From NCBI GenBank assembly GCA_049325595.1, contig JBMOLF010000023.1, forward strand, positions 1-38,401: a stretch of 38,401 nucleotides of DNA, read 5' to 3'. Of the stretch, positions 3,001 to 6,000 are shown in pieces (positions within the stretch are counted from its first letter, which is position 1; each line of letters begins with the position of its first letter). The position numbers were made by a program. Source of the stretch: Candidatus Babelota bacterium. Its GTDB lineage: Bacteria > Babelota > Babeliae > Babelales > Vermiphilaceae.

Positions 3001-6000
3001 ACAATTTATTAAAGAAATTAAAGAGTTATAACTCAAAAAAGAATCGGGGCCGTTTTTAAACGAGCCCCGATTGCTTTTTTAACGTTGTTTTTTAAACTCT
3101 TCGTGACGACCAACCATTTTACGATCTTCTACCCGCTTATCTTTTGCTTCTAGTAGTTTGCGATACATACCATCAATTACTTTATCAACCACATCATAAA
3201 AATCTGGTCCGGTATAACTGTAAAATTCATCATAATTTGGGCTGCTTACTAGTAATTCAACATGATGATGCGCATGCACCTTTGAAGGAGTAAAAGTTAA
3301 CTCTACATATACGGGTGATGGTTCATTCTCTAAAAAAGAAATAATACGCGCTAATTGGCCATTGGCATAATCATCTAAAACTTGCGAATGCTCCATGTGT
3401 CTAAAGGTAATCTTTTTGTTCATCATCTTCTCCTTTGCCATACTAACTTAGTACTAACGTAGCGCTATAATTTTTTATTGGTTATAGCGCACTGACAAAC
3501 AAAAAGTAAATGCTCTTTAGGCTTTGCGTACTATAAATTTAACGGGTACCCCTTGTAAATTGAAATTATTTCTCATTACATTTTCAAAGAACGCTATTTG
3601 GCTTTGTTCAAACCACAATGGTTCATTTACAAACATAATAAGAGTAATTGGGGCCGTTTTAATTTGCTTTACTTTATAGACACGCAATTCACGTTCGTGT
3701 TTGAAAATCGGGCTTTCAATCAATGCCTGCTTAAATAATATGGTAAGTGCTTCATCAGAGAATTTTTGTGAATAGCGTTCCCATACTTCTTGAACTAACG
3801 GTAGTATTTTACCAATATTCTTTTCGGTCTTGCATGAAATAGAAAGTTGAGAAACTTTTCTCATTAACCATGGATAACGATCAAGTGAATTTTGCAATGC
3901 TGCTTGTTTTTCTTCATCCATTAAATCTTGCTTATTAAAGAGTAAGATTAATGCTTTGTAGTGTTCAATTGCATAAAATGCTAATTTGAGTTCTTGATCT
4001 GAAATGGCACCTTCACTTGCATCAATAAGCAATAACGCTATATCAGCATCTTCTAAAGCCCTGAATGAGCTTTTAACCATCATAGTTTCTAATGGCTCAT
4101 CTATAGATTTTTTTCGACGAATCCCAGGAGTATCAGTTAATTCAATATCTTGCTGATAAAAGGCAATTTTTTCGCGCAAGGCTTCACGCGTTGTTCCAGG
4201 AACTGGCGCTACAATCGCACGTTCTTTTTTAAGTAATGCATTAAGCAATGATGATTTACCCACATTAGGCTTACCAAGAAGTACTACTCTAAAAGCTGGT
4301 TCATCTTCTTGTTGAGAACCGGTCACTGGTAATACATTCGTCATTGCATCAAGTAAATCTGCTATACCAGTCCCATGTGTTGCTGAAATAGGAATGACTG
4401 GTTTATGACCAAGTCTTTCAAACTCGTATAAATGCTCAGCAGCATCTTTACTATCGGCTTTATTAATTACCACAATTGTTTTCTTACCCATTTTATGGCA
4501 TAATTGCGCAACTTCACGATCTTCAGATTGGATACCCACTGCAGCATCACACACTAGCAATAAAAGATCAGCTGTTTCTAGCAAACTTATTGCTTTTTGT
4601 CGTACTGCTTCATTAATAGGGTCGGTGGTTTTCTTTAAACTAATACCACCAGTATCGTAAAGTTCAAAGCATCGATCTTTCCAGCATACCGTATCTTTTA
4701 TAAAATCACGGGTAACACCGGAATAATCATATGCCAAGCTTTTTTCTTGAACAGACAATCGATTAAATAAGGTAGATTTACCAACATTGGCTCTACCAAC
4801 AATAACTACTTTAGGCAATTTACTCATGGTTGATTCTCTTTAACTTCTGTTACTATGCCCGGAAAATGTTTTAATAATATATGTGATTTTTTCCACAAAG
4901 AAGCATCTGAAACATCGACTACTGCTTCAGGTGCAGATACTTTTTGCTTAGGTTTAAATGTTCTTGCTACGGGATTAAATTTAGGAGCAGCATTTTGCAA
5001 AACTTTAGGTTTAGGTTGCTCATTAACCACTGGCACATTTGTTGATTGTGATGCTGAAACATTAATTGTTTTCGGTTTTTGCGCTGCGGTAAACATCGGA
5101 TTAAAAATTACTGATGACCCAAATTGCTCTTGCAAAAGCGGCATCCAAATGGTGGTTGCATTTTGTAACCAATCTTTGAAAAAGACAAATTCTTTTGAAA
5201 ACTCTACATCAAGTTGGCTCTTTAAAGAATGCCATTCTTTCAGAGTTCCTTGCTTAAATATTGAAGTAAGTAAAGGATCTTTTACTTTTTCAATTTCTAA
5301 AACAAATCGATTCCATGCATGAGTGCTATTAAATTGGGCAATTGTTTCTTCTTCATCATCATTCTGCTCATCCTCTTCCTCAGACAATTCTTCAGACTCA
5401 TCATCAATCACTATTTCTTCTCCTATTCCAGAAGCAGTAAGTGGGCTACCACTAGAAGAATCGGTAGAATTTTTTTTATGACAAAGTCTAAGCAAAGCAA
5501 TTTCAAAAAGCGAATGTTGTGCAGCGGTTTTTAAAAAGAGCGGTTCATATTCGTAGAGCACCTGCAATAATTCTTGTAGGCGAGCTATACTGCAACCGGT
5601 AACAATCTTTTTCAATGATGGAATATACTCATTAAAGGTATTTGGTTGTACGCCACACTTAACCCATACAGCAGCTCTAATTACTTCAACAAATCTATTC
5701 CAAATACGTTCAGCATTATAATTAGTAAAATCAATACGCTGCAAATAAGATAATAAATCAGCTGCGTTTTTATACAAAACAACATCTAACAAAGAAACCA
5801 TATAGGCATCATCAATATGCCCTAAAACGGCAAGAACTGATTTTTTATTAATGCGCGCAGAAGAAAAACGCACTTGTTCAAGCAAATTCAGTGCATCTCG
5901 CACAGAACCACTTGTTTGATTAATAATACAATCAATTGCATCATCATCTATGCTAATATGTTCTTGTTCGCAAATCGTTGCTAAATGATTATGCAGAGAA

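What a model noticed while it worked through the whole genome (the two positions that open the first line are those of the whole stretch)
3517..4827. Ribosome-assembly GTPases Obg and Era are missing; Der is the only Era-like GTPase left
The genome lacks Obg (no GTP1_OBG domain anywhere in six frames) and has no Era (no GTPase with a KH_2 domain); of the conserved translation-factor-like GTPases only Der/EngA (g01312), HflX, YchF, TrmE, LepA and TypA remain. I read this as a bacterial ribosome-assembly and stringent-response wiring that works without two GTPases that are essential in model bacteria. If so, Babelota are a natural knock-out that shows which late 50S and 30S assembly checkpoints are dispensable or taken over by Der.
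Evidence so far: PF01018 (GTP1_OBG): no match in this genome and 0 of 101 Babelota genomes >=90% complete, against 10 of 10 bacterial controls. TIGR00436 (Era) in this genome matches only the two GTPase domains of Der (C23:3754-4812), TrmE, HflX, IF2, YchF and TypA; pfam.tsv has KH_2 only on ribosomal protein S3 (g00634). Not in pfam.tsv either: RimM, RimP, RsfS, RsgA_GTPase, RelA_SpoT; RbfA is present (g00140). The COG table in the supplement of Pagnier et al. 2015 gives 0 Obg and 0 Era for Babela and TM6SC1, against 46 and 36 of 47 other small genomes, but the passages of the text that I read do not comment on it.
(Added by a program. Inside this text positions count along the whole contig: contig position 1 is position 1 of the stretch shown here. 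"Call 12" and the like, gene names such as g00115 and contig names such as C1 are that model's own, and its searches are not shown. The text may have been shortened before it was handed on; [...] marks where a part breaks off. The agent that wrote the report below was given it as the finding of a first reader that could run no searches.)

Follow-up and report, generated by a model that had tools for sequence, protein, structure and literature searches.

The report
Babelota lack Obg and Era GTPases
The gene at this spot is an ordinary Der ribosome-assembly GTPase in an intracellular bacterium whose whole phylum lacks the usually essential GTPases Obg and Era, a real gap that has already been reported.

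Summary
Window 3517-4827 (-) encodes a canonical, single-copy Der/EngA: two G domains plus a KH-like domain, TIGR03594 413 bits against a cut-off of 306.7.

The absences are real.
- Own genome (1.29 Mb, 95% complete): no GTP1_OBG match even at E<=10. No Era either: Era models hit only G domains, and the four KH_2 ORFs are S3, RNase Y, NusA and PNPase.
- Obg across the phylum: 1 of 251 genomes, and that one hit is a 72% GC chimeric contig end.
- Era over cut-off: 0 of 251.
- EngB, RsgA and RbgA: 0 of 121 each.
- RelA/SpoT: 1 of 121, a marginal hit.
- Retained: Der 121 of 121, RbfA 61 of 61, HflX 40 of 41.
- Also retained in this genome: YbeY, full-length 16S and 23S rRNA, and an intact Era-binding 16S 3' end.

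Both losses are already in print. Yeoh 2016 reports Obg absent in TM6. Gruffaz & Smirnov 2023 report Era lost in Dependentiae. Pagnier 2015's supplement gives the counts.

What is added here is the phylum-wide census, and the point that Babelota are a non-CPR exception to a 2025 generalisation.

Verdict: observation confirmed, already known, modest interest. That Der "takes over" is untested.

The parts
3517..4827 (-). der/engA: 436-aa ribosome-biogenesis GTPase Der, with two tandem G domains and a C-terminal KH-like domain
   Evidence: ORF. TIGR03594 413 bits (cut-off 306.7), model 1-432/432. PF01926 in two stretches. PF14714 at residues 357-434. Closest solved structure is B. subtilis EngA 2hjg, E 1.1e-76, residues 5-434 against 4-433.
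4824..6590 (-). dnaX (DNA polymerase III gamma/tau subunit). Its stop codon overlaps the der start codon in ATGA.
   Evidence: PF13177 at 6.9e-39, plus the DNAX lid domain and gamma domain III. The ATGA overlap is read directly. A dnaX-like ORF lies directly upstream of der in 7 of 8 other Babelota loci.
3079..3441 (-). hpf-like gene (Ribosomal_S30AE / ribosome hibernation factor family), 75 nt downstream of der on the same strand
   Evidence: PF02482 at 1.8e-09, 38.7 bits (cut-off 23.7). An HPF homologue is found beside der in 5 of 8 other Babelota loci.

Best explanation
**What is there.** The feature is an ordinary, vertically kept der gene in a dnaX-der-hpf string. It lies in a member of Babelota (Dependentiae/TM6).

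**The loss.** This phylum lost a whole block of ribosome-assembly and stringent-response genes once, before its sampled diversity arose. The block comprises Obg, Era, EngB/YihA, RsgA and RelA/SpoT; RbgA is also absent. In this genome RsfS, RimM and RimP are absent too.

**What is left.** Der is left for the late 50S steps. RbfA and YbeY are left for the 30S 3' region. HflX, YchF, LepA and TypA are left as general ribosome-associated GTPases.

**How it most likely works (inferred, not shown).**
- The assembly GTPases act as kinetic checkpoints rather than as catalysts.
- A slow-growing, host-dependent cell that imports nucleotides has no (p)ppGpp signalling to couple to Obg. It can tolerate slower, less policed assembly.
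- Partial functional overlap then covers the remaining need: Der with Obg on the 50S, and RbfA/YbeY with Era on the 30S.
- This is the same 'keep one of the pair' pattern reported for some CPR classes. Here it occurs in a non-CPR lineage with full-length rRNAs.
For: **Shown here.**
- Der is canonical and single-copy in 121 of 121 sampled genomes.
- Obg domain: 0 hits in the own genome at E<=10. In the phylum, 1 of 251 genomes has a hit (189 of the 251 are >=90% complete and <=5% contaminated). That hit lies in the first 240 bp (72% GC) of a 1,738-bp contig whose remaining 240-bp bins are 32-40% GC, so it is chimeric.
- Era (NF000908) over cut-off: 0 of 251 genomes against 10 of 10 bacterial controls. 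I counted 27 assemblies listed as a single contig among the 251. Every listed best hit is a G domain inside a 407-500 aa ORF.
- EngB 0 of 121, RsgA 0 of 121, RbgA 0 of 121.
- RelA_SpoT 1 of 121, and that one is marginal at 27.3 bits.
- RbfA 61 of 61. HflX 40 of 41. YbeY is present in the own genome.
- A motif census of all stop-to-stop ORFs of 80 aa or more (Walker A, then DxxG, then [NT][KQ]x[DE]) gave 11 hits. Eight are named: IF2, TrmE, HflX, FtsY, TypA, YchF, LepA and Der. The 691-aa and 402-aa ORFs look like EF-G and EF-Tu by motif and size, but I did not scan them. One 857-aa ORF with two Walker A motifs was also not scanned.
- A PF01926 scan at E<=10 found no further G domain over cut-off.
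- The usual gene slots are empty: rpmA is followed by secF, and ybeY is followed by a non-GTPase orphan.
- rRNAs are full length: 16S covers model 1-1533 and 23S covers model 1-2925. The 16S 3' end reads GGATCACCTCCTT.

**From the literature.**
[quoted passage not shown] Der and ObgE show a complementary distribution in CPR classes, as do era and rbfA (PMC12641178, sections 6, 7 and 12).
- Era overexpression suppresses rbfA defects (PMC10582724, section 20).
Against: - Nothing here shows how assembly actually proceeds. Tolerance and redundancy are inferences from gene content.
- Der shows no added domain or other visible change that would mark a widened role.
- Profile searches cannot exclude a replacement that has diverged beyond sequence recognition, or an unrelated analogue among the unannotated proteins. 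No structure-based screen was run.
- The phylum samples are 'drawn evenly from a larger group', not exhaustive, and most are metagenome bins.
- EngB, RsgA and RbgA are also missing from some of the 10 bacterial control genomes. EngB is over cut-off in 6 controls. RsgA is over cut-off in 8 controls, one of them an archaeon. RbgA is over cut-off in 4. Their absence is therefore less remarkable than that of Obg or Era.
Confidence: 0.78

Rival explanations
1. Non-orthologous replacement. An unrecognised lineage-specific or host-derived protein does the work of Obg and/or Era, so the checkpoints are kept and only the players changed.
For: Orphan genes do sit next to assembly genes. One example is the 248-aa ORF that overlaps the ybeY stop by 4 nt. 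PMC12641178 raises the same possibility for CPR (discussion).
Against: - No extra G domain was found in the genome by the PF01926 scan at E<=10. The motif census gave 11 hits, of which 3 (a 691-aa, a 402-aa and an 857-aa ORF) were not scanned against a family library.
- The ybeY-linked orphan has a hydrophobic, signal-peptide-like N-terminus by eye. It has no Walker A motif and no Pfam match at E<=10.
- The ORF after rpmA is SecF.
- No positive candidate was found.
Confidence: 0.15
2. Artefact. Obg and Era exist but are missed, either because the bins are incomplete or because the genes are too divergent or AT-rich for the profiles.
For: The own genome is a 24-contig assembly at 95% completeness. 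Most of the sampled genomes are draft bins. The six-frame search relies on a loose first look.
Against: - The result is the same in 251 genomes from 141 genera. I counted 27 assemblies listed as a single contig, and 189 are >=90% complete.
- The same method finds Der in 121 of 121 genomes, RbfA in 61 of 61 and HflX in 40 of 41. It finds Obg and Era in 10 of 10 bacterial controls.
- Independent COG-based and marker-based analyses reached the same result.
Confidence: 0.03
3. Host supply. The parasite uses host factors, for example organellar assembly GTPases, or assembles ribosomes under host-provided conditions that make the factors unnecessary.
For: The lifestyle is obligately host-dependent, and a TLC-family ATP/ADP transporter gene lies in the same window at 8283-9680. 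Eukaryotes encode organellar Era and Obg homologues (PMC10582724).
Against: None of my calls tested protein import. I know of no precedent for a bacterium importing host assembly GTPases (recalled, not searched).
Confidence: 0.02

Closest known systems
Der/EngA of Bacillus subtilis (PDB 2hjg) and E. coli Der on the 50S (PDB 3j8g)
   Same: The architecture is the same end to end: GD1, GD2 and a KH-like domain. The alignment runs from residues 5-434 to residues 4-433 of 2hjg at E 1.1e-76. The equivalog model is passed.
   Different: No structural difference was seen. The genetic background differs: here no Obg, Era, EngB, RsgA or RbgA was found beside Der. The gene order dnaX-der-hpf is, as far as I recall, not that of E. 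coli or B. subtilis; this was not tested here.
Reduced ribosome-biogenesis-factor sets of CPR/Patescibacteria (Amikura et al. 2025, PMC12641178)
   Same: Supposedly indispensable GTPases are lost, with a keep-one-of-two pattern. Class ABY1 lacks obgE but keeps der, and era and rbfA show complementary trends. Babelota keep der and rbfA and lack obg and era.
   Different: Babelota are not CPR. Their 16S and 23S rRNAs span the full Rfam models, whereas CPR rRNAs are reported as shortened. [quoted passage not shown] Its six Dependentiae genomes are not flagged as symbiotic/parasitic in Supplementary Data 2.
Era-less Chlamydia
   Same: An obligate intracellular lineage without Era. It is named together with Dependentiae in PMC10582724. 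Era is 0 in the Chlamydia and Chlamydophila columns whose headers are visible in the Pagnier 2015 table.
   Different: In that table, Chlamydophila pneumoniae and three of the four Chlamydia columns with visible headers still have COG0536 Obg. Babelota lack both Obg and Era.
Earlier reports on TM6/Dependentiae gene content (Yeoh et al. 2016; Pagnier et al. 2015 supplement)
   Same: The OBG GTPase marker was found in none of the TM6 genomes analysed. COG0536, COG1159 and COG0218 are 0 in Babela and TM6SC1, and COG1160 is 1.
   Different: Those reports cover a small set of genomes (two in Pagnier's table) and draw no link to ribosome assembly.

Membership tests
Der/EngA (TIGR03594) | Two tandem GTP-binding domains in one polypeptide | tested here: met
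   PF01926 matches in two stretches. Walker A motifs lie at stop-to-stop ORF positions 14 and 188.
Der/EngA (TIGR03594) | C-terminal KH-like domain (PF14714) | tested here: met
   PF14714 at 2.2e-13, 50.8 bits (cut-off 27.3), residues 357-434.
Der/EngA (TIGR03594) | Full-length score above the curated equivalog cut-off | tested here: met
   413 bits against a cut-off of 306.7, model 1-432/432.
Der/EngA (TIGR03594) | GTP-dependent binding to 50S precursors | not testable with these tools
   This is a biochemical property. It is only inferred from homology to 2hjg and 3j8g.
Obg/CgtA (PF01018 + TIGR02729), anywhere in the genome | Glycine-rich Obg N-terminal domain (GTP1_OBG) | tested here: not met
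   0 matches at E<=10 in the own genome. 1 of 251 genomes in the phylum has a match, and it is a chimeric contig end.
Obg/CgtA (PF01018 + TIGR02729), anywhere in the genome | Equivalog score over cut-off (280.25 bits) | tested here: not met
   The best match is 75.5 bits, on the G domain of YchF.
Era (NF000908 / TIGR00436), anywhere in the genome | An Era-type G domain followed by a type-II KH domain (KH_2) in one protein | tested here: not met
   Era-model matches stop at model position 187 of 270. The KH_2 carriers are S3, RNase Y, NusA and PNPase, all without a Walker A motif.
Era (NF000908 / TIGR00436), anywhere in the genome | Equivalog score over cut-off (237 bits for NF000908) | tested here: not met
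   0 of 251 genomes are over the cut-off, against 10 of 10 bacterial controls. Der itself scores 180.6 bits. TIGR00436 is 'passed' only by summing the two G domains of Der, which is a false positive.
EngB/YihA, RsgA, RbgA | Equivalog score over cut-off | tested here: not met
   0 of 121 genomes for each of the three, own genome included.

The most novel reading that the evidence does not exclude
Babelota are a non-CPR phylum with full-sized rRNAs that lost Obg, Era, EngB and RsgA secondarily and as a block, along with the stringent response, while keeping exactly one partner of each late-assembly pair. Der is kept without Obg on the 50S, and RbfA/YbeY without Era on the 30S.

If the same 'one of each pair' rule arose independently here and in CPR classes, two things would follow. 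Der/Obg and RbfA/Era would be genuinely redundant checkpoint pairs. And the core assembly-factor set could be rewired after it was established, which weakens the argument that the CPR repertoire reflects early divergence. With cultured members growing in amoebae, this would be an experimentally tractable natural double knock-out.
Probability: 0.4. Interest if true: 0.55.

Novelty: already known. Interest (0 to 1): 0.3.

Why it matters
Obg and Era are treated as near-universal, essential bacterial GTPases and as antibiotic targets. A whole phylum that lives without both, and also without EngB, RsgA and (p)ppGpp synthesis, yet has ribosomal RNAs of normal size, marks out which assembly checkpoints are dispensable in a slow-growing intracellular cell.

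The fact itself has been published piecemeal since 2015-2016 (Obg) and 2023 (Era). What this check adds:
- breadth: 121-251 genomes and several further factors;
- removal of the one apparent exception, which is a chimeric contig end;
- the point that Babelota contradict a recent statement that such reduced repertoires are confined to CPR bacteria.

Tried and rejected
1. **Gene slot after rpmA (L27).** I looked for obg there. The next ORF is SecF.
2. **Gene slot after ybeY.** I looked for era or a stand-in. The 248-aa ORF coupled to ybeY by a 4-nt overlap has a hydrophobic N-terminus, no Walker A motif and no Pfam match at E<=10. Rejected as an Era substitute.
3. **The single phylum-wide Obg hit (G155).** Rejected as native. 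It is a 79-residue fragment in 240 bp of 72% GC at the end of a 1.7-kb contig whose remaining 240-bp bins are 32-40% GC.
4. **TIGR00436 'over cut-off' in the own genome.** Rejected as Era. It is the sum of Der's two G domains.
5. **The single RelA_SpoT hit (G109).** A marginal synthetase-like domain fused to NUDIX in one genome. It is not a long RelA/SpoT.
6. **Promoter and terminator scan of 2900-7300.** Fewer promoter-like sites than in shuffles (8 against 14.9) and terminator-like sites at chance level (3 against 3.3). Nothing to report.
7. **Supplement of PMC12641178.** The held text gives the genome list and rRNA alignments, but no per-genome factor table for the Dependentiae rows that I could find. 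Its figures are not held.
8. **Earlier notes of this scan.** Nothing relevant.
9. **One call failed on a frame slip of mine.** It was corrected.

No structure prediction, fold search, complex prediction, large protein-database search or read mapping was run. None was needed for the question as posed.
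Full report
**The feature.** Window 3517-4827 on the minus strand is a 436-aa ORF.
- It carries two MMR_HSR1 G domains and the C-terminal KH-like domain of EngA.
- It passes the NCBIfam equivalog for Der end to end: TIGR03594, 413 bits, cut-off 306.7, model 1-432/432.
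- Its closest solved relative is B. subtilis EngA (2hjg), E 1.1e-76, aligned over residues 5-434 against 4-433.
- I saw no extra domain and no truncation. It is a standard Der.

**Its surroundings.**
- Upstream, dnaX (4824-6590) ends in an ATGA overlap with the der start codon.
- Downstream, 75 nt away on the same strand, lies a small S30AE/HPF-family gene at 3079-3441.
- In eight other Babelota loci a dnaX-like ORF precedes der in 7 of 8, and an HPF homologue lies beside der in 5 of 8.
- A consensus promoter and terminator scan gave nothing above shuffles.

**Absences in the window's own genome** (G000: 1,286,077 bp, 24 contigs, 94.96% complete).
- *Obg.* PF01018, the Obg N-terminal domain, has no match even at E<=10 and no first-look candidate. 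It rings in 10 of 10 bacterial controls. The full Obg model hits only the G domains of YchF, HflX, Der and TrmE, best 75.5 bits against a cut-off of 280.
All are G domains and none goes beyond model position 187 of 270. Its nominal pass is the summed score of Der's two G domains.
- *KH_2.* The domain occurs in four ORFs, named S3, RNase Y, NusA and PNPase. None has a Walker A motif.
- *G-domain census.* A PF01926 scan at E<=10 was combined with a motif census of all stop-to-stop ORFs of 80 aa or more (Walker A, then DxxG, then [NT][KQ]x[DE]). Named by NCBIfam are Der, TrmE, HflX, YchF, IF2, TypA, LepA, FtsY and Ffh. Two further ORFs of 691 and 402 aa look like EF-G and EF-Tu by motif and size. 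One 857-aa ORF has two Walker A motifs. These three I did not scan.
- *Other factors.* RsfS, RimM and RimP have no match at E<=1.
- *Expected gene slots.* rpmA is followed by secF. ybeY is followed by a 248-aa orphan with a hydrophobic N-terminus, no Walker A motif and no Pfam match.

**Across the phylum.** All samples are 'drawn evenly from a larger group', and every genome listed falls in one order.

| Factor (model) | Genomes with a true match | Notes |
|---|---|---|
| Obg domain (PF01018) | 1 of 251 | 189 genomes are >=90% complete and <=5% contaminated; 141 genera |
| Era (NF000908, cut-off 237 bits) | 0 of 251 | 10 of 10 bacterial controls pass; listed best hits are G domains in 407-500 aa ORFs, i.e. 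Der; I counted 27 assemblies listed as a single contig |
| EngB/YihA | 0 of 121 | |
| RsgA | 0 of 121 | |
| RbgA | 0 of 121 | |
| RelA_SpoT | 1 of 121 | a 387-aa protein with a marginal synthetase-like domain (27.3 bits, cut-off 27) fused to NUDIX |
| Der | 121 of 121 | one copy each, all over cut-off |
| RbfA | 61 of 61 | |
| HflX | 40 of 41 | |

The single Obg match is a 79-residue fragment. It lies in the first 240 bp (72% GC) of a 1,738-bp contig whose other 240-bp bins are 32-40% GC. I read it as a chimeric contig end from a high-GC organism.

EngB, RsgA and RbgA are also missing from several of the control bacteria, so their absence weighs less than that of Obg or Era.

**The ribosome itself.**
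- The 16S gene spans the whole Rfam model (1-1533; 1,544 nt).
- The 23S gene also spans the whole model (1-2925; 3,018 nt).
- The 16S 3' end reads ...GGATCACCTCCTTTC. This contains the GAUCA and CCUCC elements that PMC10582724 (section 10) describes as bound by Era's KH domain.
- So, unlike what is reported for CPR, the loss of these factors is not accompanied by visibly shortened rRNA in this genome. Ribosomal-protein content was not surveyed.

**What is already in print.**
- *Yeoh et al. 2016* (PMC4776705, passage in section 5). [quoted passage not shown]
- *Gruffaz & Smirnov 2023* (PMC10582724, passage in section 5). [quoted passage not shown]
- *Pagnier et al. 2015* (PMC4378268). Supplement file 2 lists COG0536 Obg as 0/0 for Babela/TM6SC1 against 46 of 47 genomes, COG1159 Era as 0/0 against 36 of 47, COG0218 EngB as 0/0 against 26 of 47, and COG1160 Der as 1/1 against 47 of 47. 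The main text has no occurrence of 'Obg' and none of 'Era' as a gene name.
- *Amikura et al. [quoted passage not shown] In CPR classes der/obgE and era/rbfA are distributed in a complementary way. [quoted passage not shown]' Six Dependentiae genomes are in the dataset, but the text says nothing about their factor content. In Supplementary Data 2 they are not flagged as symbiotic/parasitic.
- *Searches made.* Dependentiae+Obg (4 papers), Dependentiae+'ribosome assembly'+GTPase (4), TM6+Obg (2), Babelota+GTPase (0), and a broader Obg/Era/EngA/Chlamydia query. Within these searches I found no paper that puts the two losses together with the retention of Der and RbfA, or that tests them phylum-wide. 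Subscription journals and bioRxiv supplements are outside what I could see.

**How it most likely works.** Shown: a canonical Der is kept everywhere, while Obg, Era, EngB, RsgA, RbgA and, bar one marginal hit, the (p)ppGpp synthetase domain are not found in any sampled genome. The simplest history is one loss before the sampled radiation.

The rest is inferred.
- These GTPases are checkpoints, not catalysts.
- The lineage is host-dependent. PMC4776705 infers that parasitism is ancestral, and a TLC-family ATP/ADP transporter gene lies in this window.
- Without alarmone signalling, such a cell can tolerate slower, less supervised assembly.
- The retained partner of each pair would cover the remaining need: Der for the late 50S, RbfA/YbeY for the 30S 3' domain. 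HflX, YchF, LepA and TypA remain as general ribosome GTPases.
- Published genetics points the same way. Era overexpression suppresses rbfA defects (PMC10582724, section 20).

Rival readings, with my estimates: an unrecognised replacement factor, about 0.15; a detection or assembly artefact, about 0.03; host supply, about 0.02. No positive evidence was found for any of them, but the first cannot be excluded without a fold-level screen.

**Verdict.** The claim that Der takes over is untested, and the title's 'only Era-like GTPase' overlooks TrmE. The core facts are already published, so I rate the novelty as already known and the interest as modest (0.3). The residual value has three parts: the phylum-wide counts, the removal of the one false exception, and the recognition that Babelota are a non-CPR, full-size-rRNA counter-example to the 2025 generalisation. 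That last point could be tested in cultured members.

**Limits.**
- The phylum samples are not exhaustive and are mostly draft bins.
- Absence rests on profile searches of six-frame translations.
- The GTPase superfamily assignments (Leipe et al. 2002) are recalled, not tested.
- Sister phyla could not be searched.
- The figures of the cited papers were not visible.

Noticed in passing
window 3079-6590 (-); L039-L046: dnaX, der and an hpf-like gene form a same-strand string, with an ATGA stop/start overlap between dnaX and der. A dnaX-like ORF precedes der in 7 of 8 other Babelota loci, and an HPF homologue lies beside der in 5 of 8. A replication clamp-loader gene translationally coupled to a ribosome-assembly GTPase is an unusual, conserved linkage.
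   Followed up: partly
window 8283-9680 (-): 465-aa ORF of the TLC ATP/ADP transporter family (PF03219, 1.6e-22). This is the nucleotide-parasitism hallmark of intracellular bacteria. It lies next to rpsB at 7199-8128.
   Followed up: no
L038 (G155:C144:1-1738), bases 1-240: The first 240 bp of this short contig are 72% GC and encode a fragment of an Obg N-terminal domain on the minus strand. The remaining 240-bp bins are 32-40% GC. It looks like a chimeric assembly join with DNA of a high-GC organism.
   Followed up: yes
L050 (G109:C1), 1228-2391 (+): 387-aa protein that joins a marginal RelA_SpoT synthetase-like domain (27.3 bits, cut-off 27) to a NUDIX hydrolase domain (66.6 bits). It is the only RelA_SpoT hit among 121 sampled Babelota genomes.
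   Followed up: partly
L048 (G000:C9:8742-12146), 737-1483 (-): 248-aa orphan ORF whose start overlaps the ybeY stop by 4 nt. It has a hydrophobic N-terminus and a charged C-terminal half that looks like coiled coil by eye. It has no Pfam match at E<=10.
   Followed up: partly
L047 (G000:C7:60611-63850), 1156-1497: No ORF of 60 aa or more lies directly upstream of rpmA (L27), where rplU (L21) usually sits. The upstream neighbour is an ankyrin-repeat gene on the other strand. Whether L21 is encoded elsewhere was not checked.
   Followed up: no
window 18001-22000 and 30001-32000: G+C drops to about 0.30 in these stretches, against 0.35-0.39 in most of the rest of the window. The content of these stretches was not examined.
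   Followed up: no
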